A stretch of DNA of 64,000 nucleotides, from IMG/VR virus record IMGVR_UViG_3300009034_002371, positions 1 to 64,000 of that record; one strand, 5' to 3'. Under the pieces are notes generated by a model that saw nothing but the letters and a program-made list of their open reading frames with translations, ran no database searches and was not told the origin of the DNA. Of this stretch, positions 1 to 64,000 are shown one piece after another. This DNA comes from a virus. A program made the translations under genes and the position numbers. The number at the start of each line of letters is the position of its first letter. Position 1 is the stretch's first letter.

Positions 1-3000
1 ATACATTCTCTTAGGGAAATTACAAGGCGGAACTGGGAGGAGATTGAACGACTTCTTGACCAGTTAACTGAGTTAAGGGATCAAGGAGAGTTGTCCCGTA
101 CAGATGAAAAAAGCGTTGGACACTTTTTGCTTAAATCTCTCATTTTTAACGAGAGACTTGCTAAAGCAATAGATGAAGTGCTGGGGACGGAACCTATGCA
201 GTCTCAATTAGATGCCACTCTTCATTTAGCTCAAACTGAGGAAGAAGAAAGTAACAGTGATAAAGGGACTGTATCAACTTTTCTACAGTCACGGATACAC
301 GAGTCGTTCACACGCGCTGCAGATCAGTTGTACGCTATGGGTCTTATAAATACTGATGAACGTATAGCTATTTCTAGTTGTATCGGTGATGCCCTCGAGG
401 CATTTGCCGATGTTATGAGAGAGAAAGTACCTAGCGCTTTGGAGATAGATGTACCGGTTGAGGTTGCGCAAGAAATCCTCCGAAACGCTATCTTGAATAG
501 AAGACAGGGTGTCCTTCGTGTGGCCCAAGAGCCCGAGCCAGTTCCCATCGGACCTGAGGGGGAGGAGGTTCGGGAACACGGTGCATTTTATACCTCGTTG
601 TCAGACCTGATAGAGTTAGCTCTTGGAGATGAACGTCATGCTATAGCAACTTATGATGCAATACTTGAACCAATGGATGAAGATGATCCAAACAGGCTAG
701 CGTTTGAAGAGATTCTTAGGGATGAGCAGGATCATGAAAAAATTCTTATTCGAATGTTGGGGGCTAAAATACCCCCTCCGGTTAAAGCTGTTAAACTATC
801 CAAGATAGCGTCACTTATTCGATTAGCCATAGACAGGCAGGATTTCTTTGACTTTTATGGGTTGGCTTTTTTGCCAAGTGCTAAGCCCGAGGTTAGCTAT
901 GCAACTGATCCAGATGCGTATTTAGAGAATCTGAGGGAAAACTATGATGCCGTCTTAAATCGTATTTCGACGGTTTTGGATTTGGGTTATCAGTACATTA
1001 CGGAGTTGGGATCTGTGGTTAGGGGCGAGTTTCTTGATAATATCTATCAATCGGGGCTATTCTCGATTGCAGTAGATAAGCTTGAAGGTAAAGTCTCTGA
1101 AGAAACGTTTGATTTTCTGAGCGAGTACGCGCGTATCTATCCTGCACACCCCACAGCAGAAGAGCTTCGGGAGATACATAAGGATATGCCCGTAGAAGAT
1201 TTAGTTGTCCTATATGAAGAACTACCTTGGTCGGGAAATTATGGTGGAGAGCCTTGGGCCCGTATAGCAGAAGCATACGTCCGGTTACAAGATGTCTACG
1301 GTCAAGCTTCTGAAATATTATCGGAGGGGGCAATGCCGGAGGATTGGGCTACTGCTCTTAGGAGTGGAGATTTTGGGAGAGGAGTTACCGATGTAGCTTC
1401 CTCTATAGATTACCTAAACTCCCTAGTGCATAACACCGCTCCAGCTATGGCGAAACTTGATAAATGGATTCCTTATGCTCTCACATTAGTTTCTGCCAGT
1501 GCTGTTGCTCCCCCAGTGGCCGAGGAGATGTCTCCTCAAGCTCGGAAAGCTGTCGGGGAGTATTATCGGGTGCACCCAGAGAGGGGAGAAACTTATGAAC
1601 AGTTTGTTCAGAACTTCGGGAATCGTGTTGAGGAACTCCCTGAAACGGTTAAGACGTACGTCCTTGGAAACGCGGAGGATCCCGAGCTTGTAAAAGATCT
1701 GTTTTATGATTTTGTGAGGAGGAGATCTACTACCTCGGACACGGATAAGATGTCCCAGTATAGTACTTTTCTTAATCAGCTTGAACGGTCACCAGGGTTT
1801 AAAGCACTTGAGCAGGGGGGATATGATAATCAAGGGATGGAAGTGCTGGGGTATATTAGCTCGTTGGATCCTGAAGAAGTTCCTCGGTATATTTCCCAAT
1901 TACCGCCAGCTTATACAAGCGCGTTGTTAAGAAATCCTGATACCTCCCAAGACATTGTGGGCATGGTCGCCGAGAGGACAGATTTACCTCTACCTGTGAT
2001 GGTGGAGTTAGTTCCTCGTATAGAAGATCAAACTATGCGGGAGGAGATGTTTGATCGCCTTACAGATCCTCACCAAACACCACAGGTTATATTTTCCGCA
2101 GCATTTGATCCTATCCGCTTTTTAGACGATCCAAGTCCCTTTATACGTTACCGTGCACTCGATTTTGCTTTTGACAGAGATAAAACTTTTGATGCTAGTG
2201 CCTATCTGGATGATCCTGATGAGCAAGTGAGGGGGCTTGCTCAGCAAATTATGGAGACTCGGCAGGTTCCACCAGAGGAGGCTGACGAAGCACAGTATAA
2301 TTGGGAGGTATTTAGGAACAGTTATGGCAACCTAGTCAGTGAAATGGGTATTTGGGAGCAAATTGAGCCTAGGGAAGTATCTGAAGAAGAGTTCCGATCG
2401 GCTTGGGAGACGCTAGCTGATCCCGGGACAGGTAAGTTTGATAGAGCACAAGCTGCATCGTTCATAAGAGGGTACCCCAAGCCTCCACTTCCAGTAGGTG
2501 CAGAGTTGGGAGAGGCCCAAGTGGTTCTGGAGCAGCTTAAAAGTGAGGGAGTTTCGTTTGAAGACCAGTACCGCGGGCTCCTCGATTGGGCTGGGGATGC
2601 TGGCTATGTATTGCCCAGGATACCTAACCCCGAGGAAGTTGATGCGGCCTGGCAGGGGTTGGGCGGCTCGGCTAAGATACACAGCCCCGCGGGAGTCTCT
2701 GCGGAAGAGATGTTAAATTTTATCGTCGGTTATGGTCCGGCCGAGGAAATACCTGAAGAAGTACCACCCGAGATTTCACCCGCTTTTGCTGATGAGTATG
2801 CTGCTCTTGTACAACAAATGATCAATGCTGGAGAAATTGATCCCAGCCGAGCAATAGTTACCCCGGAGGAGCTTATTGAGGCACAGGAGTATCTGATGTA
2901 CGATCCTATTTCTGGGTTTCAGTATGCTGCGGCAAAAGAGTTCATAAAAAGTTATACACCGGTTGAAGAAGTTCCTGAAGAAGTTCCACCTGAAGAAGCA

Positions 3001-7375: not shown

Positions 7376-8113
7376 ATGAGACTTACAAATACCATAAGTA
7401 ATAATATAGCTTTTGGTGGGGAAACAGGTAAGTCTGTGAAATATGTGTCTCGTCTTATTGTCCCTGCCAACAGTTACAGGGACGTTGATATAGAACAAGT
7501 AATGCCCCTGGCCCTTTTTGATCGGGGTTTCCAGAACAGCGTTGCTAACGGCAGCATAGTTCTGACTTTCGGATCTGCAGATCAATCTTATCTGAGTCGA
7601 GTGCGAGGTTTTCTGAATAGTTTGTTGAATTTGAGCTCATCGAGTTCCTGCTCTTCGAGTTTCAGTAGTTGTTCATCGAGCTTCAGCAGTTCGAGTTTCA
7701 GTAGCTGCTCATCGAGCTTCAGCAGTTCGAGTAGTTGTTCATCGAGCTTCAGCAGTTCGAGTAGCTGTTCATCGAGCTTCAGTAGTTCGAGTAGCTGTTC
7801 ATCGAGCTTCAGTAGTTCGAGTAGCTGTTCATCGAGCTTCAGTAGCTGCAGTTCCAGCTTCTGTTCATCGAGTTCAAGCTTCTCGAGTTCATCTAGCTGC
7901 TCATCGAGCTTCAGCTCATCGAGTTCATGTTCAAGTAGCTTCTCAAGTTGTTCATCGAGTTCAAGCTTCTCGAGTTCATCTAGCTGCAGTTCCAGCTTCT
8001 CAAGTTGTTCATCGAGTTCCAGCTTTAGCTCGTCAAGTTCATGTTCAAGTAGCTTCAGTAGCTCGTCAAGTAGCAGTCCCTCGTTCTCAAGTTCTAGTTC
8101 AAGTACCCCTTAA
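7376..8113 (+). CDS. Small putative virion protein, paralog 3 of 3, with ~155-aa poly-Ser/Cys/Phe tail
   Basis: RLTNT...VSRLIVPAN...FDRGFQNSVANGSI followed by (SSSSSCSSSF)n. Confidence 0.75.
   Translation: MRLTNTISNNIAFGGETGKSVKYVSRLIVPANSYRDVDIEQVMPLALFDRGFQNSVANGSIVLTFGSADQSYLSRVRGFLNSLLNLSSSSSCSSSFSSCSSSFSSSSFSSCSSSFSSSSSCSSSFSSSSSCSSSFSSSSSCSSSFSSSSSCSSSFSSCSSSFCSSSSSFSSSSSCSSSFSSSSSCSSSFSSCSSSSSFSSSSSCSSSFSSCSSSSSFSSSSSCSSSFSSSSSSSPSFSSSSSSTP
7634..8104 (+). repeat. Ser-tract repeat, including four tandem 30-bp units (7711-7830) encoding the 10-aa unit SSSSSCSSSF
   Basis: atcgagcttcagYagttcgagtagYtgttc at 7711, 7741, 7771 and 7801. Confidence 0.9.
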
Positions 8114-37851: not shown

Positions 37852-39408
37852 ATGAGATTAGGGGTGGTAATAAACCAGCCTGGAGCTGCCAAACCGGAGG
37901 ATCAAAAGATACTTAAGCTACCTGGCGTTAAGCCGGTAGAAGTATCGGTTGAAGTACCTCCCGATGGTACCGTAGTTGAAGTAGCGCAGCTACCGGCAGG
38001 TGTTAAAACTATTGAGATTCCGGAGCAACCTGTGGAACAGGTTCAGCCTGCTATTGCTCCTCTCGGTGCTGCTGCCAGAGCTGGTGCAGTGGAGGGAGCT
38101 CCACAGGTACCACCGGGCAGAAAGATTATCTTATATCAGCGCCAGTCGCCAGGTGACATCTTGACTATGTCGAATCCCGTTGGCGACCTGAAACGGACAT
38201 ATCCCGATTGGTTTATAGATGTAAAATCTCCAGCTCAGGAGGTCTGGCTTAATAATCCACATCTCACACCACTTGATGAAAACGATCCAACGGTGGAGAA
38301 ATATGATGTCACGTACGATGATATCAATATTAGCGGCTGGGATGGACTTCACTTTACGGATGCGTTTCGATACGATATAGAGAGGAAATTAAACTCTAAT
38401 CCGGCGATGGTGTCGAAGTGGGGGAGAGTAGAGATAAGAAAGACCAGTTTCCGACCGGAGTTGTATATATCCGATGACGAGAGGAGCTGGTGGTCCCAGG
38501 TTCATTGCGAATTCTTCTGGGACGGTCCCTATTGGGTGATTAACGCGGGGCGAAAGCCTGATAACGAATTAAAACAGTATCACCGGTGGCAGGAGTCAGT
38601 AGCACAGCTGAATGAGTACTTTGCCGGGCGCGTAAAGATAGTCCAAATGGGACACGAGAGTCATATACATCCTCCGCTGGAGGGTACTTTCAGCCTTGTA
38701 GGTAAAACTGATATACGGCAGCTTATCCGTCTCATATACTGGTCACATGGTACAATTGGACCTCTGTCCTTTCAGTTTGTTATCTCAGGGGCCTTCGAGC
38801 AACCAGCTGTATGTGTGGCTGGTGGAAAGGAAGGAGTTCCGTGGCACCTTTATCCGCATATGAGGTATATTTACACTAATGGTGCTCTGGAGTGCTGCAG
38901 GTGGGACGGGTGTTGGTTAGGGGGCATGCAGGGTGAATGTAAGGATTCTGTTGATGGTGTTCCCCATTGCTTCAGGTTAATCGAACCCCACATGATAGCA
39001 GACGGTGCTAAAATGTACTATGAGGGCGGTCGATTACCTATGCCGACTGAGGAGCAGGTTGAAGAGTGGACTAAAGATATTCTCATTCTTGAGGATCAAC
39101 CTGATAGGCAAGAGGCGTTTCAGCAGAAGCTGGGCCATACCCACCGATTAACCATTCTAGATAATGCTAAGGCAGCTATCAAGATACTTGGGGAAAAGTC
39201 CTTTGATGTAATATCGCTGGATCATCATCTTACTGATGAGAAACCAAAACAAGGGCAAACACCCAACACGGGGGAAACGGTTGCCAAGTTTCTAGCGAAA
39301 CAGAAACCTGATTCCCACATTATAGTGCATTGTCATGATGGTTTTGGTGTTAAGCTCATTACAAAACACTTACCACAGGCAGAGCATCGTCCAGGTTATT
39401 GGGTCTAA
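37852..39408 (+). CDS. GT9-like (heptosyltransferase-like) glycosyltransferase fused to a C-terminal receiver-like (cyclic-phosphate-processing type) domain
   Basis: QSPGDILTM...K.Y..W...VQ.G...LVGKTDIRQLI.LI; C-terminal ILILED...FDVISLDH.L...TG..VA.FL...IVH. Confidence 0.7.
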   Translation: MRLGVVINQPGAAKPEDQKILKLPGVKPVEVSVEVPPDGTVVEVAQLPAGVKTIEIPEQPVEQVQPAIAPLGAAARAGAVEGAPQVPPGRKIILYQRQSPGDILTMSNPVGDLKRTYPDWFIDVKSPAQEVWLNNPHLTPLDENDPTVEKYDVTYDDINISGWDGLHFTDAFRYDIERKLNSNPAMVSKWGRVEIRKTSFRPELYISDDERSWWSQVHCEFFWDGPYWVINAGRKPDNELKQYHRWQESVAQLNEYFAGRVKIVQMGHESHIHPPLEGTFSLVGKTDIRQLIRLIYWSHGTIGPLSFQFVISGAFEQPAVCVAGGKEGVPWHLYPHMRYIYTNGALECCRWDGCWLGGMQGECKDSVDGVPHCFRLIEPHMIADGAKMYYEGGRLPMPTEEQVEEWTKDILILEDQPDRQEAFQQKLGHTHRLTILDNAKAAIKILGEKSFDVISLDHHLTDEKPKQGQTPNTGETVAKFLAKQKPDSHIIVHCHDGFGVKLITKHLPQAEHRPGYWV

Positions 39409-44429: not shown

Positions 44430-45629
44430 ATGGCCTTACATGCAGATACGGTATGGGAAGTAAGATCAGCAGGAAGCAATAACAATGGAGGAGGTTGGCA
44501 CGACGCGGGCGGAGCCTCTGCCGACCACTCTCAGCAGGATGCTGCAAACGAGAGCTGGACGAACCTGTCCATTAGTGGGTCAACGTTGACTGACGACGAT
44601 GCCGGCGGTAAGTTCACTGCGAGTATGCTCGGAAATATCATCAACGTTTTGACGTCAGGCCGCTTTGAAATAAGCACCGTTACGGATGGCGATAACGTTG
44701 AGCTAGATCGATCACCGGGGAACGATACTGGGCTGACAGGATACGAGGGTGGAGCTGTCGCCGATCTAGAACAGATCGACAATATAATTGTAGCGGGGAA
44801 TACGGTACATGTAAAGGCAGGGACATATGTAGCGGGAGGAGCACTATCCTTTACGGCTGGAGGGAGCGCTACACCAGTTGTAATTGAAGGATATAATTCA
44901 TCCAGAGGCGACAATCCTACAGGGACTAATAGACCGTTGCTCACGATGGGAGCGAACGCTATTACTACTGGGCTATACACCCAGTTTCGGAACTTCAGGA
45001 TGACATCCAGCGCGGCCACCTTCTTCTCCCTCGGTACTATAAGTATGATAGTGAATTGTGCTATAGATCACACCAATACGGGTGACGCTGTTGCTGCGGG
45101 CCAGAGCGCTTCTGTCATTGACTGTGATATTACTTCTAACGGTACAGGGATAGACTGCGGCGGGTATGGCGTTAGAATACATGGCTGTTATATCCACGAC
45201 CTTAGTATAGGGATTGAGCTTGACCAATATGCCTGTTCCATTGAGTTTTGCATTCTTGATACCTGCAGCACTTACGGTATATATCTTAGCGGGGTGGGCG
45301 CACGGCACAGCCAGGACATAACAAACAACGTCTTCTACAGTTGTACGGACGCCATATATGCCGGTGTAGCGGTATACGGTAACAAGATAATGAGCAACAG
45401 TTTCTCCGATGGAACTGATGGCATTCACATTACCTCTAGTTCTCCTCATAACCATATTGACTATAACAACTGGTACAACAACGGTGGTAATGATGTGACC
45501 AACGTTTCCAAAGGGGATAATGCTACTGCGAACGATCCGCTATTTACAAATGCTGGTGCTGGCGACTTTTCTTTACAGTCTGGTTCTGCGATGAGAGGTG
45601 CAGGGTTCGCTGTGAGGGTAGGTGTATAA
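44430..45629 (+). CDS. Right-handed beta-helix (pectin-lyase-like) virion protein
   Basis: GNTVHVKAGTY, GDNPTG.NRP, repeated NN.F/GI strands, DPLFTNA..GDFSLQ.GS. Confidence 0.75.
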   Translation: MALHADTVWEVRSAGSNNNGGGWHDAGGASADHSQQDAANESWTNLSISGSTLTDDDAGGKFTASMLGNIINVLTSGRFEISTVTDGDNVELDRSPGNDTGLTGYEGGAVADLEQIDNIIVAGNTVHVKAGTYVAGGALSFTAGGSATPVVIEGYNSSRGDNPTGTNRPLLTMGANAITTGLYTQFRNFRMTSSAATFFSLGTISMIVNCAIDHTNTGDAVAAGQSASVIDCDITSNGTGIDCGGYGVRIHGCYIHDLSIGIELDQYACSIEFCILDTCSTYGIYLSGVGARHSQDITNNVFYSCTDAIYAGVAVYGNKIMSNSFSDGTDGIHITSSSPHNHIDYNNWYNNGGNDVTNVSKGDNATANDPLFTNAGAGDFSLQSGSAMRGAGFAVRVGV

Positions 45630-51073: not shown

Positions 51074-53192
51074 GTTAATACACTTTGTATGGTTTGGACC
51101 TAGACCTTTAGGTTATACTGAGTTTCTGGCTGTTAAAACAGCCCGTAAGATATATGGGGTTGAACCATACCTCTGGACAGACAATTCTGTCCCGGAAAAC
51201 GAGTGGTTGTTAAGAATAAAAGAGATCGCCGTACAAAAACAGATTAAAAGTGAGTGGCAGCAGATCGCTAACCTTGCCAGCAAGTATAATTACAAATCAG
51301 ACTATCTAAGATATCAACTCCTACACGATTACGGGGGTTTGTACCTAGATATAGATACCCTCTGTGTGAAACCTATCTTCGGCCTCGTTCTGCAGGGTTT
51401 GGTCGCCGCGCAGCAGCAGTCTTCCAAAGAGCCCATCAATGGCGCTGTTATGTATGTTGCCGAGCCTCAGCATCCAGTTGTGGCTGCCCTCTTAAACGAA
51501 TCTATAAGAATACTCAGAGAGGTCAAGTCTATGACCTGGTCAGAGATTGGCCCTAAATTGCTTTCCAAAACTTTGAAACCGAATATTGATTGTACTATAC
51601 TACCTCATGAACATTTCTATTTCTATAAGTCGTCTCACTGGCGGCAGATATTTGAGGATAATCCTATAGATGACCAGATGTGTGTTATTCATTGGTGGAA
51701 CAAACATGCAGGTGCATTTGCCAGGAAAACTGTTAACCCAGAATATATTAGGACTTCTAACAGCCTCTATGCCAAGATGGTAAAGAGAGTGTTAGGTTCG
51801 GATTATGGTTTGTCCCAGAAGACACCTGCACTGTCGGCTATTGTTTCTATTATGGGTGATCACCCTCAGCGAGCCAGAAACTTTGAAGCGACTCTGCGGT
51901 GTATACAGCAACAAGACTTCCAAGACTATGAGCTAGTAATTGTAGAGCAGTATATAGAGAAGCCTCTATGGGAGAGTCGTGCTAAATCTCTAAATGCAAC
52001 TTACATGACCATCACAGAGAGTACCCTACCTGACTGGGCACGCTTCTGCCTTTCGTGGTGTAAGAATGTCGGAGCCCGGGTATCTAAGCATGATACTTTA
52101 TTGATGCTTGATGGTGATGTGGCATTTGGTAATGATTACTTTTCACGTGTGGTTAGTACTTTCAGGACTGATTGGGGTTACCTTATGGGATTTAGCTTGC
52201 TTATCCGGTTGAACACCAAAGGTACTGGCATCTACTTGAGAGATGGGACCTACCATGCGGAGTGGCCACGTGAGCATGTTGAGAAGACTAACAATCCAGG
52301 TTTCTCAGGTAGTGGAGGCGGGGGTGGTTCCGTTGTCTTCGACAAGCGGTTTTTCTTTGATGTTATAGGGGGTTATAGTGAGAATTATTTCGGCTGGGGT
52401 AAAGAGGATAAAGATTGTCTACTGAGGGCTTATAGATTTGCTGGAGGCAATGAAGAGGGTAGGTTAAGGCGTATGGACTACACCCTACTGCATTTGTTCC
52501 ATCGCCACATAGGACTCGCGCATAGGCCGAAGGAAGCGACTACCCACTATTTCAAGTATACACGGCCATATCCACGTCGTGTTACACATCTTCTCGTGGA
52601 GGCCCAAGTAGGTAGACCGGAGCATAGAACTCTTATAGATCTGTCGCGTTTGGATTCTCCCAGTGCTGGTTGTGTTGAACTTCAAAGATCCCCGTTGTCC
52701 CAGGAAGAACGTGTGAGTATGTTGGGTAACCACCACCCCGAGTATAGTTTTGAAGATTTCACTAATCAAAAGTTGTTCGATGCCACAGATCTAGACGGCT
52801 CTGTCATTGTTGGCAGTTGTTTCTATCAGGATCCCGATTCTCAAGATGCAGATCCTCGCGTGAAAGTTTTTCCTGATGATATGCAGGGGGTTACGTTTAT
52901 TGAATGCAATTTAGATAATGTGTATGTACCCCCAGGTAATACAGTTGACCTCTTGTGTTCTTGTAGGAGGATCAAACGTCAGAATGACGGAGAGTCTTGG
53001 ATACTTAATGAAGATCTAGTGCCTATTGAGCCATTGAGCAAGGAACGCTTAGCCGCGGTTGGTGGTAATATAGTCCCCAGGAAGATACCGCGACGTGCTA
53101 TACGTAAAGAGGAATTGCGTCGCTTACGCAGTGAACGAATGAAGAAGTTCCAAGAGTTTTACGCGTCTCGAGAGAGGCAGGATGAAGAATGA
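51063..53192 (+). CDS. GT32 + GT2/7 fusion with unknown C-terminal domain
   Basis: GGLYLDID (GT32); LDGD...GGYSE..GWG.ED (GT2/7); then DFTNQ...GSCFYQ...FIECNLDNV domain. Confidence 0.82.
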   Translation: MTCRLIHFVWFGPRPLGYTEFLAVKTARKIYGVEPYLWTDNSVPENEWLLRIKEIAVQKQIKSEWQQIANLASKYNYKSDYLRYQLLHDYGGLYLDIDTLCVKPIFGLVLQGLVAAQQQSSKEPINGAVMYVAEPQHPVVAALLNESIRILREVKSMTWSEIGPKLLSKTLKPNIDCTILPHEHFYFYKSSHWRQIFEDNPIDDQMCVIHWWNKHAGAFARKTVNPEYIRTSNSLYAKMVKRVLGSDYGLSQKTPALSAIVSIMGDHPQRARNFEATLRCIQQQDFQDYELVIVEQYIEKPLWESRAKSLNATYMTITESTLPDWARFCLSWCKNVGARVSKHDTLLMLDGDVAFGNDYFSRVVSTFRTDWGYLMGFSLLIRLNTKGTGIYLRDGTYHAEWPREHVEKTNNPGFSGSGGGGGSVVFDKRFFFDVIGGYSENYFGWGKEDKDCLLRAYRFAGGNEEGRLRRMDYTLLHLFHRHIGLAHRPKEATTHYFKYTRPYPRRVTHLLVEAQVGRPEHRTLIDLSRLDSPSAGCVELQRSPLSQEERVSMLGNHHPEYSFEDFTNQKLFDATDLDGSVIVGSCFYQDPDSQDADPRVKVFPDDMQGVTFIECNLDNVYVPPGNTVDLLCSCRRIKRQNDGESWILNEDLVPIEPLSKERLAAVGGNIVPRKIPRRAIRKEELRRLRSERMKKFQEFYASRERQDEE

Positions 53193-55129
53193 GAACTATA
53201 CCAGTAAAGGAATATGTTGAAGATAGGATAGAAGATAACGGATCGTATAGTCGGACTTTTCTGTCCTATCCTAAATACCATAGGCATGAAGATGGTACCC
53301 TCCATGAGACTGATTGCACTATTATAGAGAGTCAGGATCCTGATTGGGATTGGGAAGTTACCGAGGGTGTCTGGACTCTTTATGTTAAAAGAGATGGTAC
53401 CTTCCAGTCGCGGTTCCATGAACATACTGTTACAAGGAAGCCGGTTGGTATTGGATTTTATAATATCAGAACCAAGACTTCCATAAACAGAGTTGAGTTT
53501 GATTTAACTACATGGGACGTTGAGGTTGGGCATGATACCATAACATGGACAAATCCTGAGAACGGTATTATCTTTAAGGTATGGTATATACATGATCAGG
53601 CTCGAGGTATCGTGGAACTTCCACAAGAAGTACAAACAGAGTTATTAGCTAAGAGGCGCAAGAGCTGGTCCCGTGAAAATACTTATGTTAGCGTTATTTA
53701 CGATGCTGATATGAATTTTCAGGATGAGGATATGGAGTCCGAAGATCGGATCAGACATAAGCATCCTGATTGGGAGATCCAGATCGGAGGGCACCACATC
53801 GTCCATGAAAAATTCGGTCGGAAACCGAATCCACATCCCCCAGAGGTTGAGCGGGAAGATGCAGATGAGTCACTAGATTATACATGGCCCAAACGTAAGA
53901 TATACTTTGCCGAACAGAAGAAGTTCATCGAAGCCTGTAGAATAGATGCTCTGGAAAGCGAAGATGGGAAAATCATTTTCAATACTACCGATACCTTTGG
54001 TTTTGCTTTCTGCGAAGATGCCTATATCCGTGGCTATCCTAATTACAATAATACCAACTATAATGGTGTCGGTCTTATTGTAGATGGGCACACCAGTTCC
54101 GCGTGTGAGTATTTTTCGTTTATCAGATTCAACTTGAGTAGTCAGCTTGGTATCCCAGGTACTATATCTCTTGTTCGCTTGTACTTATACTGCTATAATA
54201 CTTCCTACGGTGGGATCGATTACATGTATGCCAGCCCGACACTCAAGCCGTGGACAGAAACGGGAGTTACCTGGCGTAGATGGAATGGCTCTGCGTATTG
54301 GAATGACCCGGGAGCTTGGTACGGGTTTTATGACTGGGAGGGATGTGAATACGATTTCAATACCCTGAATGGGGCTGGTTGTGATATTAGTAAGTATTAC
54401 GCCTCTAGGCCGGTTAATGAAGGTCACGAGGATTCCTATATAGCTATTGGTGATCTTGGGTTCCATAATATGTTTGACCATCTCCAGGCCCAGTGGGAGG
54501 CCGATAAGTGGTATGGTTGGAAAATCCACAACCCGTCTGACGAGCTTGGGAGAGCATATTTTAGAGATTCTGAGTATGCGACTGTTGGTCAGAGGCCCTA
54601 TTTAGAAGTTACTTGGGTATCTAGTAGTTCAAGTAGCTCTGCCTCGTATAGCTGTAGTTCCTCAAGTTCCAGCTCGTCCCACTCCAGTTCTTCCTCGTTT
54701 AGTTCTAGTTCTTCCAGCTTCAGTAGTTCAAGCTCATCGTGTTCTAGTTCCTATCCAGGTCCATACTACGTTAGGGCGGACGCACTCGGTGGAGGTGTGG
54801 GAGATGCCGATACTCAGGCTCGAGCTCTTACTCCGGAAGAATTTAGAACTCATAATGCAGGGTCCCCGGTAACCTATTACGTTAAAGGAAAATTTGGAAC
54901 ATGTTTAGGTGACTACGCATTTAGTGGTAACTTAAACTACTCGGCAAGGGATGGTAATTTTGCTAATGCTATGCTTATCAAGGGATACCTGAACAACGGG
55001 CCACTTGACGTAGTCCACGGAAGGTATCGTCCAAGATTTATTCTTGGGGATGTCTCTCTGAGTTCGTCAAGCTCGTGTAGTTCAAGTTCTGGTTCTTCAA
55101 GTGTTAGTTCTTCAAGTAGCTCTACTTGA
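53189..55129 (+). CDS. Virion surface protein: N-domain + DNRLRE-like domain + Ser tract + beta-helix N-terminal cap + Ser tail
   Basis: EDAYI...FIRFNLS...LYLY...W.ETGVTW...F.DSE....RPYLEVTW (DNRLRE-like); YYVRADA.GGG.G...RPR cap. Confidence 0.7.
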   Translation: MRTIPVKEYVEDRIEDNGSYSRTFLSYPKYHRHEDGTLHETDCTIIESQDPDWDWEVTEGVWTLYVKRDGTFQSRFHEHTVTRKPVGIGFYNIRTKTSINRVEFDLTTWDVEVGHDTITWTNPENGIIFKVWYIHDQARGIVELPQEVQTELLAKRRKSWSRENTYVSVIYDADMNFQDEDMESEDRIRHKHPDWEIQIGGHHIVHEKFGRKPNPHPPEVEREDADESLDYTWPKRKIYFAEQKKFIEACRIDALESEDGKIIFNTTDTFGFAFCEDAYIRGYPNYNNTNYNGVGLIVDGHTSSACEYFSFIRFNLSSQLGIPGTISLVRLYLYCYNTSYGGIDYMYASPTLKPWTETGVTWRRWNGSAYWNDPGAWYGFYDWEGCEYDFNTLNGAGCDISKYYASRPVNEGHEDSYIAIGDLGFHNMFDHLQAQWEADKWYGWKIHNPSDELGRAYFRDSEYATVGQRPYLEVTWVSSSSSSSASYSCSSSSSSSSHSSSSSFSSSSSSFSSSSSSCSSSYPGPYYVRADALGGGVGDADTQARALTPEEFRTHNAGSPVTYYVKGKFGTCLGDYAFSGNLNYSARDGNFANAMLIKGYLNNGPLDVVHGRYRPRFILGDVSLSSSSSCSSSSGSSSVSSSSSST

Positions 55130-55187
55130 TGGTACATATTTACGCCTTGACTGTACTTAGGGTGAATTTGTAATTGGGGGTTGTTGT

Positions 55188-58100
55188 ATGAAACCTCAAC
55201 CAACGGGTTTATATACCGAAGACGCGATAGAATCGGGTGGTATGCACCATACCACCTTCCTATCCTATCCCAAATATCATCGACATGAAGATGGTACTCT
55301 CCATGAGACTGATTGTGTTATCAGGGACAGTCAGGACCCTGATTGGGATTGGGAAGTTATCGAGGGTGTCTGGACTCTTTATGTTAAAAGAGATGGTACT
55401 TATCAGTCCCGATTTCATGATTATACTATCACGAGAAAGCCAGTTGGTGTTGGGTTCTGTAACACACATTCCAAGAAGTGTGTCGTTAAGATAGACTTTG
55501 ATCTGAACTCCTGGGTAGTCAAGATCGATGGGGATACTGCAACATGGACAAATCCCGATAACGGTATTGTTTTCAAAGTCCAGTATATACATGATCAGGC
55601 TCGAGGTATCGTAGAACTTCCACAAGCAGTACAAACACAACTGTTAGAGGATTGTGGATCCTGGCCAGTTGAAGATACCTCCGTTTGTGTTATTTATGAT
55701 GCCGATATAGACTTCCTTAGTGAAGATGTAGATACTGTAGATAGTATAATAGATGGGAACTCGAAGTGGGTAGTTAAAGTTGGAGGACTTTATGTAGTTC
55801 ACGAGAAGCATGGACTGGTAAGTAAAGAACACCGCGATAATCTCGCTTGGCAAAAGCATACGATATACCTTCCTGAACAAAAGAGATATATTGAAGCATG
55901 TGCTCTAGATGCTTTAAAAAGTGAAGATGGCGTACTTATCTTTAACGATACTGATACGTTTAAGGAAGGTGTGGATGGCTACTCAGGCTGCGAGGATACT
56001 TATATAGAGTTAAGTAGTGAAACCACCCACGGTAGTTCTACCCAGATATACTGCGACGGGGACTCTTGGGATACAAAGAAAGTCTTGATTAAGTTTGACC
56101 TAAGTGGTGAGATTCCACTAGTTCCTCATCAAACAATAACTTCTGCTTCCCTGGGTCTATACGTTCTTAACCACTTTGATGGCCCAGCTGACTCCCTTCG
56201 GATTATGTGTGCAGGTGTCCTTAAACCATGGACAGAAGATGAGGCTACCTGGACGCGCTGGCATAAAACAAATGACAAGTGGTGGCACAGTAGCGGCTGT
56301 GATGCTAAGAATGACTATGCCTACTTCAATAGTTTTAGTGGTTATGGGTATGATAGATTTAGTAGTTGGACCCAAGCGTTTATTAACGAAAGTGATGAGG
56401 ATGACTACACTTCATGGGTTGTTAGACCATGGCAAATACAAAAGCAGTATGATGCTCAGCTCTGGTATGGTTGGGTACTCGACCCTGGCGTTCCAGAGCA
56501 TGTAGAAATTACTTTTGCTAGTTCGGAGCATGCTGATCCAACAAAGCGGCCGTATCTGACAGTTACCTGGGAACCAACTAGTTCCTCAAGCTCCAGTTCG
56601 AGCTTCAGTAGTAGTTGTTCCAGTTCGAGCTTCAGTAGTAGTAGTTCTTCATGGGGCCCCTACAGTTGTCAGTTTGGAGATTATACAGTACTACAACACC
56701 TTCATTTTGAAACTGAAAACCCTGATGGGATCCAAATTGGTAAATATAGTATTGTCCATAACTGTTATGCTAACCAGGCCTCCCCCACTGCAGACTATCC
56801 AGCGTGGAAAGCAACTGGAAGCGGATTTAATGTAACTTCGTTCATCAGCTGTGAAGGGGCTAGTGTTGGTGGGTACGCCTTCTATACAGATCTTGAGGAT
56901 ATAACCTTCACAGGGTGCCTTGCTCGTGATAGTAATGTTGGTTTTTATGTTGGAAACCAGGCTATCAGATTAGTCCATAATCTGATTTATAACTGTGCAC
57001 GTGGTATACATATAGCAAGTAGAGATACCTTTATACATGGCAATACTATTTACAACTGTAGTACCTGTGGAATATATCTTGGTACTACTTGGGCCAGTGT
57101 GTACATTCTAGGCAATATTTTAGATTCCTGTGACTATGGTATATTGGCATCTTTTCGACAACCGGCATGCTATCTTGATTGGAACAATTTCAGTAATAGC
57201 CTCACTCTAGATATAGCCCAGTCTGGTGGCCAAGACGTTGTGAATAAGGGGCCGAATACTACCTCCCTTGATCCTGGTTTCTTTGATATAGGAAGTTTAG
57301 ATTTCCGTGTTGGTCAACATATGAGGGGACTTGGTGTTAAGTCTAATTTTGGTAGTAATAATATTATAGCAGCTAGTTGTATCGGCTATCCGGATCAGGG
57401 AGCCATACAGCGGAGAGAGGTAATTGGTGAGGATGCAGCGGTATGGGAGACAGGACCTGATGCACATACCGGAATTGGTTATGTGAAGCTGAGTCCTACT
57501 CACGCTAGTAGATATCCCCTGAAGTGGGAATTCTTAGCTCCTGTCAAAGCTGATCGTGCTCTTCAGTTTAGCTTTTGGCGTAAGGGGAGTTTTAGTGGTA
57601 CATTTCAATTTCTTGCAACAGGTGTTGGTATAAGCATATCTGAGGTTGTTGCTGTACCGGGTTCGTATCAACAACATATATCCCCTGTGGTGACTCCAAC
57701 TTCGGATCAGTTTGCCAAGATAACGTTACAAGCGCAAGGAACAGGTACTATCTATGTCGATGACTTTGGAACTTCGCAAAGTTGTTCCTCAAGCTCATCG
57801 TTCTCAAGTAGTTGTTCCTCAAGCTCATGTAGTAGTTCCTGTTCGTCAAGTTCATGTAGTTCATCGTTCTCAAGTAGTTGTTCCTCAAGCTCATCAAGTT
57901 CATGTAGTTCATCGTTCTCAAGTAGTTGTTCCTCAAGTTCATGTTCGAGTAGCTTCTCAAGTAGTTGCTCTTCGAGCTCCAGCTTTAGTTCATCATGCTC
58001 AAGTAGCTTCTCAAGTTCATGTAGCAGCTCCTCGTTCTCAAGCAGCTGCTCATCGAGTTCATCATGTTCAAGTAGCTTCTCATCGAGTTCATCATGTTCA

Positions 58101-58589
58101 AGTAGCTTCTCAAGTAGCTGTTCATCGAGCTTCTGTTCATCAAGTTCATGTTCAAGTAGCTTCTCGAGCTCCTGTTCATCGAGCTTCAGCTCATCGAGTA
58201 GCTGTTCAAGTAGCTTCAGTAGCTGCAGTTCAAGCTTCAGCTCATCAAGTTCATGTTCAAGTAGCTTCTCGAGTTCATGCTCTTCGAGCTTCAGCTCATC
58301 GAGTTCATGTTCAAGTAGCTTTAGTAGCTGCAGTTCATCGTTCTCAAGTAGCTGCTCATCGAGCTTCAGCTCATCGAGTTCGTGCTCAAGTAGTTTTAGT
58401 AGCTCATCGAGTAGCAGTTTCAGTTCATCGAGTTCATGTTCAAGTAGTTTCTCAAGTTCATGTTCAAGTAGCTTCTCAAGTTGTTCATCGAGCTCCAGCT
58501 TTAGTTCATCATGTTCAAGTAGCTTCTCAAGTTGTTCATCGAGCTCCAGCCTTAGTTCATCATGTTCAAGTAGTTCGAGCATACAGTAG
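55188..58589 (+). CDS. Virion surface protein: N-domain + DNRLRE-like domain + Ser tract + beta-helix body + jelly-roll/CBM-like domain + ~265-aa Ser/Cys/Phe tail
   Basis: N-terminus paralogous to 53189; FKEGVDGYSGCEDTYI...FASSE....RPYLTVTW; middle aligns with aa ~98-470 of 58599. Confidence 0.75.
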   Translation: MKPQPTGLYTEDAIESGGMHHTTFLSYPKYHRHEDGTLHETDCVIRDSQDPDWDWEVIEGVWTLYVKRDGTYQSRFHDYTITRKPVGVGFCNTHSKKCVVKIDFDLNSWVVKIDGDTATWTNPDNGIVFKVQYIHDQARGIVELPQAVQTQLLEDCGSWPVEDTSVCVIYDADIDFLSEDVDTVDSIIDGNSKWVVKVGGLYVVHEKHGLVSKEHRDNLAWQKHTIYLPEQKRYIEACALDALKSEDGVLIFNDTDTFKEGVDGYSGCEDTYIELSSETTHGSSTQIYCDGDSWDTKKVLIKFDLSGEIPLVPHQTITSASLGLYVLNHFDGPADSLRIMCAGVLKPWTEDEATWTRWHKTNDKWWHSSGCDAKNDYAYFNSFSGYGYDRFSSWTQAFINESDEDDYTSWVVRPWQIQKQYDAQLWYGWVLDPGVPEHVEITFASSEHADPTKRPYLTVTWEPTSSSSSSSSFSSSCSSSSFSSSSSSWGPYSCQFGDYTVLQHLHFETENPDGIQIGKYSIVHNCYANQASPTADYPAWKATGSGFNVTSFISCEGASVGGYAFYTDLEDITFTGCLARDSNVGFYVGNQAIRLVHNLIYNCARGIHIASRDTFIHGNTIYNCSTCGIYLGTTWASVYILGNILDSCDYGILASFRQPACYLDWNNFSNSLTLDIAQSGGQDVVNKGPNTTSLDPGFFDIGSLDFRVGQHMRGLGVKSNFGSNNIIAASCIGYPDQGAIQRREVIGEDAAVWETGPDAHTGIGYVKLSPTHASRYPLKWEFLAPVKADRALQFSFWRKGSFSGTFQFLATGVGISISEVVAVPGSYQQHISPVVTPTSDQFAKITLQAQGTGTIYVDDFGTSQSCSSSSSFSSSCSSSSCSSSCSSSSCSSSFSSSCSSSSSSSCSSSFSSSCSSSSCSSSFSSSCSSSSSFSSSCSSSFSSSCSSSSFSSSCSSSSSCSSSFSSSSSCSSSFSSSCSSSFCSSSSCSSSFSSSCSSSFSSSSSCSSSFSSCSSSFSSSSSCSSSFSSSCSSSFSSSSSCSSSFSSCSSSFSSSCSSSFSSSSSCSSSFSSSSSSSFSSSSSCSSSFSSSCSSSFSSCSSSSSFSSSCSSSFSSCSSSSSLSSSCSSSSSIQ
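57774..58580 (+). repeat. Longest Ser/Cys/Phe low-complexity tract (~800 bp)
   Basis: Imperfect repeats of tcaagtagcttc / tcatcgagttcatgt units; same DNA vocabulary as 7634-8104. Confidence 0.92.
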
Positions 58590-58598
58590 AGGTAGAGG

Positions 58599-60011
58599 AT
58601 GGCTGCACCCAAGACAAGATATGTTCGCGCTGACGCCGCTGGTGGTGGTAATGGTACCGTAGATGCTGCAAGCGGGCCAGGCGGTAATTATGCCTGGACG
58701 TGGAATGAGTTTATGTCCAATCTCCCACGCTATGGCGATACCTACTATATTAAAGGTCCTTACACATATACCCTTACAACGGACCTTGATTTCTATGCCG
58801 GACGTTCTAGTGCCCCTATAGTTGTTGAAGGATATTATAATTCCCCCGGAGACAACCCTACAGGAAATAATAGACCTAGAATTGCTTGCGGTGTCCATGA
58901 GTTGGACCTAGGTGGTTATTTCTATTTTAGGAATTTCCGAATAACAATAAGCGAGTGGCTTGGATGTTATTCCGAGGGTCCGAATACAATTGTACAAAAT
59001 TGTAGTAGTTATAATACCGGTCCTGCTATTGACTATCCAGCTGCCTTCTCCGGCGGGGGAGGCGTTTGGATTGACTGTGATGGGAGAGCAAGAGACGCCG
59101 GGTGGTTTTTCGAGGGTAATGTTATCGGTTGCTGTGCTTACAACTGCGATTACGGTTTTATCTCATGGGCGCACGATGTTTGCATTATACATAGTATAAC
59201 AAAAAATTGCGGCTACGGGGTATGGATGTACTCCGGCGGGAGTGCTATATTGAACAATACATTCTATAACTGTTCCTCAGGTGGAATCTTTGGCGAGAAT
59301 CAGGCTGTTGGCCCTATTATAGGTAACGTGTTTGACTCTGGTGATAAAGGTGTAGAGTATGATGTTCCGGCAGGTCGGGAGGTGTGGCTTGATTACAATA
59401 ATTATGAGAACCTCTCCGGGAGTGATACTGTAAACTGTAGCAAGGGGGAGGACTGGACCAGCGATGATCCCGAGTTCTTCGACTTCGGAACTAGCGACTT
59501 TCGGGTAGGTCCAGGTATCAGAGGACAGGGATTCCCGAAGTGGCAAGATTTCTTTGACCATATCCTCAACCCCAATTTGGAGGGTTGGTCTGATCAGGGA
59601 GCTTTGCAGCGACGAGAAGAAGTAGGGGAAATGTCTGTCGAGAAGGAGACAGGTCCTAACGCTCGCGGGGGCACTGGATCATGTGTACGATTCACTCCTT
59701 CATCTACTGTACACCCTCAAGTATGGGTTTTCAAGGTTCCCTGCCAGGATAGTATTGCTGTACAGTTGGACATGTGGCATAAAATCACGTCCGGCTTTAA
59801 TGGGTCTTTTACATTTAGTGCTTCTGGTAGTGGTATCACTCCAATAAATGAGGAAGTAGTGGCGCTTACAGATGATGGTGTTTACCATGAGTTTCTTTCC
59901 AGTATAATGACGCCGACCGAGTCCGGTTACATTGCAGTAACACTGAGAGCAAAGCAGGGTGTAGTTTCCGGTAGCATTTTCGTTGATGACATTACTACTC
60001 TAGAAGTATAG
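58599..60011 (+). CDS. Intact beta-helix + CBM-like virion protein
   Basis: RYVRADAAGGG.G...GDNPTGNNRPR...NNTFYNC...DPEFFD...DQGALQRRE...IFVDD. Confidence 0.72.
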   Translation: MAAPKTRYVRADAAGGGNGTVDAASGPGGNYAWTWNEFMSNLPRYGDTYYIKGPYTYTLTTDLDFYAGRSSAPIVVEGYYNSPGDNPTGNNRPRIACGVHELDLGGYFYFRNFRITISEWLGCYSEGPNTIVQNCSSYNTGPAIDYPAAFSGGGGVWIDCDGRARDAGWFFEGNVIGCCAYNCDYGFISWAHDVCIIHSITKNCGYGVWMYSGGSAILNNTFYNCSSGGIFGENQAVGPIIGNVFDSGDKGVEYDVPAGREVWLDYNNYENLSGSDTVNCSKGEDWTSDDPEFFDFGTSDFRVGPGIRGQGFPKWQDFFDHILNPNLEGWSDQGALQRREEVGEMSVEKETGPNARGGTGSCVRFTPSSTVHPQVWVFKVPCQDSIAVQLDMWHKITSGFNGSFTFSASGSGITPINEEVVALTDDGVYHEFLSSIMTPTESGYIAVTLRAKQGVVSGSIFVDDITTLEV

Positions 60012-63349: not shown

Positions 63350-64000
63350 ATGGCACTTAACGCAGCGATTGTGTGGGAGGTAAGAACCTCCGGCAATAAT
63401 AATAATGGTGGAGGCTTCAAAGCGGGGGCATCTGGGACTGATCGCTCGCAACAGGACGCTGCCCATTTATCTTTTACCGATCTAGAAGTTAAGGGCGCGG
63501 TCTATACCAGAGTATACTCTGTCACAGAGAATGCAAACTTAGTTGCTACTTGTATTGGAAACTTAATCCATATAACTGGCGACGGTGGCTCCGGGCTTTT
63601 TACAGTCGGGTTTTATGAGGTCACTGGGCAAGGTAACGATGGTAATAACTATCTCGATATAGATAGGAACTGCGCTACTGGTAATGCTAGTGACGGAATT
63701 GCCGCCCTCGGGGGCGCTGTTGCGGACTTATTGGAGATAGATAGTGTTGTAGTCGCGGGTAATACCATGTATGTTAAAGCTGGAACGTACGCTCACGCTA
63801 GTGCGTTAAGTGTAAACAATGGTACTGCTAGTCTATATATTAAAACAATAGGCTATAATACTGCTAGGGGTGACGCCCCCACAGGTGATAACAGGCCACT
63901 GATACAGGACGGCGGTAACGAACAGAAATGGGGAACGTATAACGAGATTGAGAATTTCAGACGTACAGGTTCTCACACCTACGGTATCTATACTTTGAAC
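63350..64000 (+). CDS. Beta-helix virion protein, paralog of 44430, 3'-partial (missing from ORF track)
   Basis: GAGGAGG RBS; MALNAAIVWEVRTSGNNNNGGG...SQQDAA...GGAVADL.EID..VVAGNT.YVKAGTY...RGD.PTG.NRPL. Confidence 0.85.
   Translation, partial: MALNAAIVWEVRTSGNNNNGGGFKAGASGTDRSQQDAAHLSFTDLEVKGAVYTRVYSVTENANLVATCIGNLIHITGDGGSGLFTVGFYEVTGQGNDGNNYLDIDRNCATGNASDGIAALGGAVADLLEIDSVVVAGNTMYVKAGTYAHASALSVNNGTASLYIKTIGYNTARGDAPTGDNRPLIQDGGNEQKWGTYNEIENFRRTGSHTYGIYTLN

What the first reader, a model, noticed from the sequence alone, without database searches (positions are those of the whole stretch)
54620..60011. A beta-helix protein split at Ser tracts into complementary parts on two neighbouring genes: Ser tracts as shuffling junctions
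Seen: the intact protein 58599..60011 begins RYVRADAAGGG.G...YYIKG...GY.N.PGD...RPRIACG and continues VHELDLGGYFYFRNFRIT...DYPA...NTFYNC...DPEFFD..DFRVG...DQGALQRRE...ETGP...IFVDD. ORF 53189 contains only the first part (YYVRADALGGGVG...YYVKG...GYLNNGPLD...RPRFILG, ~54752-55059), flanked by two Ser tracts, then stops. ORF 55188 resumes directly after its Ser tract with the remaining part (GPYSCQFGDYTVLQHLHFET...DYPA...NTIYNC...DPGFFD..DFRVG...DQGAIQRRE...ETGP...IYVDD, ~56653-57770). The two pieces tile the intact paralog with essentially no overlap or gap. Inference: recombination between similar Ser-coding DNA tracts deleted reciprocal segments after a duplication, or inserted an N-domain/DNRLRE cassette mid-domain. 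The parts may re-associate in trans. This would be a repeat-mediated system for diversifying virion surface proteins.
Basis: partly seen in the sequence, partly recalled or inferred. Interest (0 to 1): 0.88.

Follow-up and report, generated by a model that had tools for sequence, protein, structure and literature searches.

The report
Phage beta-helix enzyme split across two genes
In an uncultured tailed phage, a sugar-cutting beta-helix domain that is normally one piece is encoded as a front piece on one gene and the remainder on the next gene, each hung by a serine linker on a copy of the same sugar-binding module; the split is old and conserved, and the pieces probably snap back together.

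Summary
Gene A (53189..55129) ends with a roughly 100-residue piece that matches residues 4-98 of the intact paralog C (58599..60011). Gene B (55188..58589) resumes, right after its Ser tract, with the match to C from about residue 98 to 467. The overlap is only 1-2 residues.

The cut lies inside a single right-handed beta-helix domain of the polysaccharide-lyase or tailspike kind. A model of C aligns to Pel9A from residue 2 to 339 (Z 27).

This is not a misassembly and not a recent event:
- Two A-type proteins and one B-type protein, 38-49% identical to A and B, have the same architectures.
- Independent public contigs bridge the junctions.
- In about 100 other family members found here, front piece ("cap") and remainder ("body") are contiguous.

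A complex prediction puts A's cap on B's first rung (score 0.79, best control 0.01). Halves of one fold tend to pass this test by likeness, so it shows compatibility, not binding.

The "Ser tracts as active shuffling junctions" reading is only weakly supported. The three tracts at the split share no exact word longer than 13 nt with one another.

The scan had already noted a C-terminal strand split in this same genome and a split tailspike in another phage. My two look-ups did not return an N-terminal cap/body split on duplicated carrier modules.

The parts
53189..54619 (+). Gene A, N-module (aa 1-477): galactose-mutarotase-like beta-sandwich followed by CBM96
   Evidence: Pfam CBM96 at aa 274-363, 37.1 bits against a cut-off of 26. 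AF2 model pLDDT 70.8. VIA Z 15.7 to the chondroitin-sulfate-binding CBM 8wab and Z 13.2 to the alginate-binding CBM 7vbo; Z about 10 to mutarotase-like domains for aa about 40-273.
54620..54751 (+). Gene A, Ser tract 1 (linker between N-module and cap)
   Evidence: mixed use of all six Ser codons
54752..55048 (+). Gene A, beta-helix cap (aa 522-620): N-terminal cap plus about the first two rungs, ending RPRFILG
   Evidence: BLASTP to C 4-98, E 6e-8. Alignments. 62-69% identical in P0002/P0003, against 45-47% for their N-modules.
55055..55129 (+). Gene A, terminal Ser tract and TGA stop
   Evidence: The same Ser tail and end are present in P0002 and P0003.
55130..55187 (+). 58-nt spacer between A and B. 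The genes are in different frames, and reading through the stop meets a second stop after 6 codons.
   Evidence: Bridged by independent contigs X2 record 11, X3 record 19 and X1 record 4.
55188..56579 (+). Gene B, N'-module (aa 1-464), paralog of A's N-module
   Evidence: 45% identity to A 1-476, E 2e-125
56580..56651 (+). Gene B, Ser tract (linker between N'-module and body)
   Evidence: Bridged by X3 record 20.
56652..57779 (+). Gene B, capless beta-helix body from W489 (WGPYSCQF...), the QGAIQ strand, and a C-terminal CBM-like beta-sandwich ending YVDDFGTSQ
   Evidence: BLASTP to C, E 3e-51. Alignment. P0005 has the same start, SSSSWGAYPVKF. Body HMM matched from position 2 with no cap match.
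57780..58589 (+). Gene B, about 270-codon Ser/Cys/Phe tail and stop
58599..60011 (+). Gene C, intact paralog: cap + body + CBM-like C-terminal domain, no Ser tract
   Evidence: AF2 pLDDT 88.4. VIA Z 27.0 to pectate lyase Pel9A over model residues 2-339. C-terminal part matches CBM16/CBM4/CBM61.
44430..45629 (+). Gene D, intact cap+body paralog with a long cap insertion
63350..64000 (+). Gene E (runs on to 64597 of the record), intact cap+body paralog

Best explanation
A and B are the two halves of an old gene fission inside a C-like polysaccharide-lyase/tailspike-type beta-helix domain.
- A carries the N-terminal cap and about the first two rungs at its C-terminus.
- B carries the remaining rungs (presumably with the active site) plus a CBM-like end domain.
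- Each piece is tethered by a flexible poly-Ser linker to its own copy of a glycan-binding module (mutarotase-like sandwich + CBM96).

The most likely working mode is that the cap of A stacks onto the open first rung of B. This rebuilds one continuous beta-helix as a two-chain enzyme with two glycan-binding arms.

Shown: the tiling, the position of the cut inside one domain, the conservation of both split forms in diverged relatives, and the contiguity of the junctions in independent contigs.

Inferred: physical re-association, enzymatic function, virion location, and the origin by a single cassette insertion at the cap/body boundary.
For: 1. Tiling with a 1-2 residue overlap.

2. The cut is inside one domain.
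- The AF2 model of C (pLDDT 88.4) aligns to single-domain lyases from residue 1-7 onward in 50 of 50 listed rows. Examples: Pel9A Z 27.0, rmsd 2.8, 293 aligned, model 2..339; rhamnogalacturonan lyase 5olr Z 25.9.
- The junction segment has a fixed length of 20 residues in 49 of 64 aligned rows and 21-22 in 9 more. It is not a hinge.

3. Of 157 stored proteins scanned with my cap, body and C-terminal HMMs, 101 have cap and body in one chain. The only full-length body without a cap is P0005, the B-type relative.

4. Both split forms are conserved.
- P0002 (631 aa) and P0003 (628 aa) are N-Ser-cap-Ser-stop.
- P0005 (905 aa) is N-Ser-WGAY...body.
- The stand-alone cap is more conserved (62-69% identity) than its N-module (45-47%).

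5. A's cap and B's helix are both closest to C among the intact paralogs, with similar divergence: 38.9% and 40.5% identity; local alignment scores 109 vs 51/31 and 230 vs 137/150. The record holds 4 cap motifs and 4 bodies.

6. Complex prediction, B 487-864 with A 518-625: score 0.79 (runs 0.79, 0.84, 0.79), best of 3 controls 0.01.
- The mark was reached by 58 of 80 solved complexes and 2 of 110 mismatched pairs.
- Runs agree in at least 96% of contacts, and partner pLDDT is at least 85.
- The interface is B 489-511 against A 580-625, that is, rung on rung as in the intact fold.

7. Independent Logan contigs bridge cap-end/Ser/stop/B-start: X2 record 11 with 7 other letters in 270, and X3 record 19 with 24 in 295. 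X3 record 20 bridges N'/Ser/body-start.
Against: - The complex pass is expected for halves of one fold. Both of my alignments contain intact single-chain homologs, so it shows that the pieces still fit, not that they bind (caveats).
- Only three diverged relatives were found (2 A-type, 1 B-type).
This does not single out the interface as the constrained part.
- The N-module tree does not resolve A-type and B-type orthology.
- There is no expression, protein or activity evidence.
Confidence: 0.55

Rival explanations
1. Conserved fission, but no re-association. The capless body of B works on its own, with its first rung shielded by Trp489 or by the linker. The cap on A has taken on a separate role, for instance as a small binding or docking domain.
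For: The outer half of the cap is its most conserved part (71-80% identity, against 51-56% for the half that would face B). The N-module occurs with quite different C-terminal modules elsewhere: P0006 has a second Disaggr_repeat/CBM96-like domain, and P0007 and L016 have only Ser tails. So A and B could simply be two members of a modular family.
Against: - The exact complementarity of the two pieces.
- Their equal relatedness to C.
- In 101 of 157 proteins, cap and body are in one chain, and no other full-length capless body was found.
- The alternating hydrophobic strand patterns at both cut faces are retained in the relatives (MLIKGY / RPRFILG, and YTVLQHLHFET).
- The complex prediction is well above its controls.
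Confidence: 0.27
2. One reading: Ser-coding tracts act as present-day recombination junctions that keep reshuffling caps, bodies and N-modules to diversify surface proteins.
For: - Modules shared between genes lie next to Ser tracts: the N-module in A and B, cap and body, and the QGAxQ strands at 64618 and 82694.
- The long Ser/Cys/Phe tracts at 7634, 57774 and 64690 share exact words of 38-44 nt.
- Short public contigs show joints between Ser tracts (tables 5 and 5c).
Against: - The tracts that flank the split (A1, A2, B1) share only 10-13 nt of exact sequence with one another and use all six Ser codons.
- The same architectures are fixed in relatives 38-49% identical.
- None of the joints shown (15 in table 5, 14 more not shown; 12 in table 5c, 39 more not shown) links A2 to B1.
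- The joints that are listed have sides of 20-48 nt in low-complexity DNA from mixed metagenomes, which the tool itself warns often come from other organisms or repeats.
Confidence: 0.1
3. Assembly chimera at the repeats: the real genome has one intact N-Ser-cap-body gene.
For: Low-complexity Ser DNA is hard to assemble. One X2 contig (record 9) joins 53488 to 55488, the same register in A and B.
Against: - The N-modules of A and B are only 45% identical, so they are not strain variants.
- Independent contigs from three other runs bridge A-end to B-start, and one bridges N'-Ser-body.
- P0002 and P0003 stop after cap+Ser, and P0005 goes from the Ser tract straight into the body.
Confidence: 0.02

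Closest known systems
PL9 / PL6-type right-handed beta-helix polysaccharide lyases (pectate lyase Pel9A 1ru4, rhamnogalacturonan lyase 5olr, PL6 alginate lyases) and phage tailspike depolymerases (Dettilon gp208, CBA120 TSPs, HK620, Sf6)
   Same: Same fold for cap plus body. Z 27.0 to 1ru4, 25.9 to 5olr and 19-22 to tailspikes, all starting at model residue 1-7. C-terminal CBM-like sandwich.
   Different: Those are single chains. Here the first ~100 residues (cap and about the first two rungs) sit on another gene. Catalytic residues were not examined. Sequence-level Pfam hits are below the gathering scores.
Polyserine-linker modular carbohydrate-active enzymes of marine bacteria (Saccharophagus degradans, Cellvibrio, Teredinibacter)
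   Same: Poly-Ser linkers separate carbohydrate-binding and catalytic modules. PMC2386152 states that more than a quarter of over 180 depolymerases of S. degradans have such linkers (passages read). CBM96 is an alginate-binding module of a multidomain lyase (PMC9971899, abstract read).
   Different: Here the genes are phage-encoded, and one linker pair sits inside a catalytic-type domain instead of between domains. The tracts are patterned with Cys and Phe.
Natural gene fissions that rebuild a fold from two chains (donor-strand complementation in chaperone-usher pili; trans-acting autochaperone segment of autotransporter beta-helices such as BrkA): recalled, not checked in a call
   Same: A missing edge or end element of a beta structure is supplied by another chain.
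   Different: Those supply a strand or a C-terminal segment. Here about the first two rungs plus the N-cap are supplied, and both partners carry a duplicated glycan-binding module.
Earlier notes of this scan: C-terminal strand split of beta-helix gene E in this same genome (e1-6124332) and a two-gene tailspike, body plus C-terminal end-cap, in another phage (e1-150628)
   Same: Phage beta-helix proteins encoded in complementary pieces on neighbouring genes. In this genome the pieces are again next to Ser tracts (QGAxQ motifs at 64618/64645 and 82694/82718).
   Different: Those splits are at the C-terminal end. This one is at the N-terminal cap and comes with a duplicated carrier module. These are AI notes; I checked only the motif positions.

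Membership tests
Right-handed parallel beta-helix (Pfam Beta_helix PF13229 / NosD PF05048 / Pect-lyase PF12708) | Sequence match at the Pfam gathering score | tested here: not met
   C: PF13229 23.9 bits against a cut-off of 25.9; PF05048 20.7 against 23.6. B: PF12708 20.8 against 27. All are sub-threshold though significant by E-value.
Right-handed parallel beta-helix polysaccharide lyase fold (PL9/PL6-like) | Single continuous beta-helix domain superposable on solved members, N-cap included | tested here: met
   AF2 model of C, pLDDT 88.4. VIA Z 27.0, rmsd 2.8, 293 aligned to 1ru4 over model 2..339. 50 of 50 listed rows start at residue 1-7.
PL9/PL6 lyases | Ca-binding acidic residues and catalytic base on the central rungs | not tested
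   No residue-level comparison was made.
CBM96 | Pfam PF24517 at gathering score, and the fold | tested here: met
   A: 37.1 bits against a cut-off of 26. Model Z 15.7 to 8wab and 13.2 to 7vbo. B has no Pfam hit at E<=0.01 but is 45% identical to A across the module.
CBM96 | Binding of a polysaccharide | not testable with these tools
   Needs a binding assay.
Split (fission) protein pair that reassembles | Intact single-chain homologs exist, and the pieces tile them without gap or large overlap | tested here: met
Split (fission) protein pair that reassembles | Both pieces kept as separate ORFs in diverged relatives | tested here: met
   P0002 and P0003 (A-type), P0005 (B-type), 38-49% identical. 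Only three relatives were found.
Split (fission) protein pair that reassembles | The two genes co-occur or are adjacent in diverged relatives | tested here: inconclusive
Metagenome loci L001-L004 end inside the first N-module. Adjacency was seen only in close relatives, 86-97% nt identity.
Split (fission) protein pair that reassembles | Physical association of the pieces | tested here: inconclusive
   Prediction only: score 0.79 against best control 0.01. A pass by likeness to the intact fold is expected.
Repeat-mediated cassette shuffling system | Long near-identical DNA repeats flanking the exchanged cassettes | tested here: not met
   A1, A2 and B1 share exact words of 10-13 nt with one another. 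Only the long tails (7634, 57774, 64690) share 38-44 nt.
Repeat-mediated cassette shuffling system | Alternative junctions present in a population | tested here: inconclusive
   Only short, low-depth Logan contigs of related strains were available. Tract-to-tract joints are ambiguous.

The most novel reading that the evidence does not exclude
A proximity-gated natural split enzyme. The cap and the catalytic body are each tethered by a poly-Ser leash to its own glycan-binding arm. A complete, stable beta-helix would then form only when both arms sit side by side on the target polysaccharide or on the virion. Together with the C-terminal strand split noted for gene E, this phage lineage would build its beta-helix proteins combinatorially from separately encoded end-pieces.
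Probability: 0.12. Interest if true: 0.85.

Novelty: new variant of a known kind. Interest (0 to 1): 0.6.

Why it matters
Right-handed beta-helices are the working parts of phage depolymerases and of many lyases. Their N-terminal cap is thought to protect the open edge and to help folding.

This pair is a natural, conserved case in which the cap and about the first two rungs are made as a separate chain. It offers a ready test of whether such a fold can be completed in trans, and whether that is used to control or combine activities.

It also shows that poly-Ser linkers in this phage lineage mark module borders even inside a domain. That bears on how receptor-binding and depolymerase genes evolve and on how to annotate them, because B would be called a truncated enzyme and A's cap would be missed.

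My literature searches found no paper that describes such a split. These were word searches of open-access texts only.

Tried and rejected
- IMG/VR scans with A, with C, and with the A/B N-module alignment found no relatives.
- The metagenome scan with the N-module alignment gave 19 loci. The four closest (L001-L004) end inside the first N-module, so they say nothing about cap or body. Their upstream gene matches the C-terminal domain of window gene 51063, which fits the A position.
- The last protein search (B body, shorter proteins) gave only two distant intact-type hits, P0158 and P0159, at 32-33% identity.
- The tree of N-modules is a polytomy and does not separate A-type from B-type. Rows used: A, B, P0002-P0007. 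P0008 and the cut loci were left out.
- The promoter/terminator scan between A and B gave only a weak terminator-like hairpin at 55143-55164. Counts were not above the shuffles.
- Read-through of A's TGA was rejected: a second stop follows after 6 codons, and B is in another frame (sequence).
- The look-up of sequencing runs listed no RNA holder. All four holders had small shares (0.05-0.12) and are contigs, so the parts without cover and the tract-to-tract joints are not evidence either way.
- My long-cap HMM did not detect the short caps of P0002 and P0003 at E<=1e-3. They fall in the 7 'no hit' rows. Their caps were confirmed by alignment.
- Foldseek on the N-module also gave low-probability matches to podovirus tail proteins (probability 0.21-0.35), which I disregard.
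- Supplements of papers were not opened.
Full report
CONTEXT

The window is bases 1-64000 of an 82,761-base IMG/VR virus record, estimated 27% complete. All sizeable ORFs lie on the + strand. Downstream of the finding are a tail sheath gene (66774..68273; phrog_2839, E 1.4e-12) and a baseplate wedge gene (79461..80921; phrog_6, E 4.5e-38). This is therefore a large contractile-tailed phage. Upstream, from 22 to 53 kb, lie many glycosyltransferase genes, a radical SAM/B12 gene and methyltransferase genes.

THE OBSERVATION

Three ORFs are as described: A 53189..55129 (646 aa), B 55188..58589 (1133 aa), C 58599..60011 (470 aa).
- C 4-98 matches A 523-620 (34% identity, E 6e-8).
- C 127-467 matches B 518-862 (37%, E 3e-51).
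- A 1-476 matches B 1-461 (45%, E 2e-125).

In a MAFFT alignment with the two other intact paralogs, D (44430..45629) and E (63350..64597), A's cap ends RPRFILG where C has RPRIACG. B starts, directly after its Ser tract, with WGPYSCQFGDY where C has CGVHELDLGGY. The two pieces tile C with an overlap of one or two residues.

WHAT THE PIECES ARE

An AlphaFold2 model of C built on 64 aligned sequences has mean pLDDT 88.4.
- Foldseek finds phage tailspikes and polysaccharide lyases. For the last ~125 residues it finds CBM16/CBM4/CBM61-type sandwiches.
- VIA-align gives Z 27.0 (rmsd 2.8, 293 aligned) to pectate lyase Pel9A over model residues 2..339. It gives Z 25.9 to a rhamnogalacturonan lyase and Z 19-22 to PL6 lyases, AlgE epimerases and several tailspikes.
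- All 50 listed rows start at model residue 1-7.

Residues 1-98 are therefore the N-cap and about the first two rungs of one continuous beta-helix domain, not a separate domain.

The segment around the cut has a fixed length: 20 residues between the conserved Pro and Asn in 49 of 64 aligned rows, 21-22 in 9, and other lengths in 6 partial or divergent rows. It is not a natural hinge.

The shared N-module of A and B was modelled with only 7 sequences (pLDDT 70.8). It consists of two parts:
- A galactose-mutarotase-like sandwich, aa ~40-273, Z about 10.
- A CBM96, Z 15.7 to a chondroitin-sulfate-binding CBM and 13.2 to the alginate-binding founding member. The Pfam hit in A is 37.1 bits against a cut-off of 26.

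CBM96 was defined on an alginate-binding module of a multidomain lyase (PMC9971899, abstract read).

IS THE SPLIT REAL, AND HOW OLD IS IT

A search of 5.8 billion proteins with A gave 8 hits among 5115 candidates. I read their sequences.
- P0002 (631 aa, 49% identity) and P0003 (628 aa, 46%) have exactly the A architecture: N-module, Ser tract, cap ending RPRLVMG, short Ser tail, end.
- P0005 (905 aa) has the B architecture: N-module, Ser tract, then WGAYPVKFGRYTILQH... through to ...YIDDF and a Ser tract. It is 47% identical to B over 99% of residues 1-870.

The stand-alone cap is better conserved than the module that carries it: 69% and 62% identity, against 47% and 45%.

An exhaustive HMMER search with C found 486 proteins at E<=1e-3. 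I scanned the 157 proteins held at that point with HMMs for cap, body and C-terminal domain.
- 101 have cap before body in one chain (87 cap-body, 8 cap-body-Cterm, 6 with extra partial cap hits).
- 44 have only the C-terminal domain.
- 3 have body without cap: P0005 with the whole body, P0010 a 281-aa fragment, P0019 a partial match.
- 1 is cap-Cterm, 1 is Cterm-Cterm, and 7 had no hit. The 7 include P0002 and P0003, whose short caps my long-cap HMM missed.

The fission is thus a derived state of one lineage. Both A's cap and B's helix are closest to C among the intact paralogs and about equally far from it (38.9% and 40.5% identity; scores 109 vs 51/31 and 230 vs 137/150). The record holds four cap motifs and four bodies.

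Logan contigs of four other runs from four studies were laid on the region.
- Three bridge the end of A, the spacer and the start of B: X2 record 11, 55059-55328, 7 other letters; X3 record 19, 54998-55292, 24; X1 record 4, 55090-55397, 43.
- One bridges N'-module, Ser tract and body start: X3 record 20, 56521-56725, 13.

With N-modules only 45% identical, a collapse of strain variants is excluded. Misassembly is rejected.

DO THE PIECES REASSEMBLE

I sent B 487-864 (alignment of 54 rows) and A 518-625 (20 rows) to the complex predictor, with the cap as partner.
- The verdict was support: score 0.79 (runs 0.79, 0.84, 0.79), best of three controls 0.01.
- The mark was reached by 58 of 80 solved complexes and 2 of 110 mismatched pairs.
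- The runs agree in at least 96% of contacts, and the partner's pLDDT is at least 85.
- The contacts put A's strands MLIKGY and RFILG on B's YTVLQHLHFET. That is the rung-on-rung packing of the intact fold.

This must be read with care. Halves of one fold tend to pass by likeness, and my alignments contain intact homologs on both sides. The result shows that the two sequences are still compatible with one beta-helix, not that they bind.

One point runs against a simple interface-driven constraint. The half of the cap that would face B is less conserved (51-56%) than the outer half (71-80%).

THE SER TRACTS

The three tracts at the split use all six Ser codons and share exact words of only 10-13 nt with one another. 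The long Ser/Cys/Phe tails at 7634, 57774 and 64690 share 38-44 nt and are built from similar ~30-nt units.

Modules that recur between genes do lie next to Ser tracts: the N-module, cap and body, and the QGAxQ strands at the starts of the genes at 64597 and 82679. The N-module family carries other C-terminal parts elsewhere (P0006, P0007, L016).

This is the usual picture of low-complexity linkers at module borders, as in polyserine-linker enzymes of marine polysaccharide degraders (PMC2386152, passages read). The unusual feature is that one border lies inside a domain.

The contig joints between Ser tracts have short sides in low-complexity DNA from mixed communities, and none of those shown joins A2 to B1. 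They do not show active shuffling.

Both cut ends fall at the same residue. A single insertion of a [Ser - stop - spacer - N' - Ser] cassette into an N-Ser-cap-body ancestor is therefore simpler than two reciprocal deletions. This is inference only.

VERDICT

It is a genuine, old, conserved fission inside a beta-helix domain, with duplicated glycan-binding carrier modules and Ser linkers.
- Re-association in trans is the best reading, at about 0.55.
- An ongoing Ser-tract shuffling system is not supported.

The scan had already noted a C-terminal strand split of gene E in this genome (e1-6124332) and a two-gene tailspike elsewhere (e1-150628). I found no note of an N-terminal cap/body split in those two look-ups. 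I found no paper on one in two word searches of open-access texts.

Noticed in passing
window 57752-58662: Across B's ~270-codon Ser/Cys/Phe tail three of six frames are open. One is a minus-strand ORF of 286 aa rich in Leu/Glu that looks coiled-coil-like. Another is a +1 ORF of 302 aa. Both are most likely by-products of the AGY/TCN codon pattern, not genes.
   Followed up: no
L020 1618-1665 (record 64618-64665) and L020 19694-19735 (record 82694-82735): Two genes begin with two copies of the QGAxQ motif followed by a Ser tract. In B and C this motif is internal, after the beta-helix (window 57396 and 59595). D and E end before it.
   Followed up: partly
window 22560-53192: A long run of glycosyltransferase, methyltransferase and radical SAM/B12 genes lies directly upstream of the Ser-tract proteins. 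The poly-Ser tracts could be O-glycosylation substrates. This was not tested.
   Followed up: no
window 53341-53488 joined to 55488-55903: One public contig (X2 record 9, 564 nt) matches A's N-module for 148 nt and then B's N'-module at the same register (offset 1999). It could be a mosaic or single-copy N-module in a related phage, or a mapping effect in the most conserved stretch.
   Followed up: no
P0005 and P0008 (relatives): Two relatives have an extra N-terminal extension, M-x-I-P-x-P followed by a Ser tract, in front of the N-module. A and B lack it. Whether the ORFs continue upstream could not be checked.
   Followed up: no
window 37852-39408: A phage gene with a cyclic-phosphate-processing receiver domain (cREC_REC, E 1.3e-7).
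   Followed up: no
window 1-5592 and 9026-13909: Two giant ORFs (1863 aa, open at the 5' end, and 1627 aa). The first has an HNH motif hit (E 1.4e-4). The second contains a 21-nt tandem repeat at 10857-10959, 5.0 copies with 97% matches, which encodes the repeated peptide PEGPPKR.
   Followed up: no
L001 2-1003: A related metagenome contig holds a beta-helix-like protein end followed by a ~170-residue Ser/Phe/Cys/Trp tract of the same patterned kind. Such tails are therefore a trait of the wider phage group.
   Followed up: no
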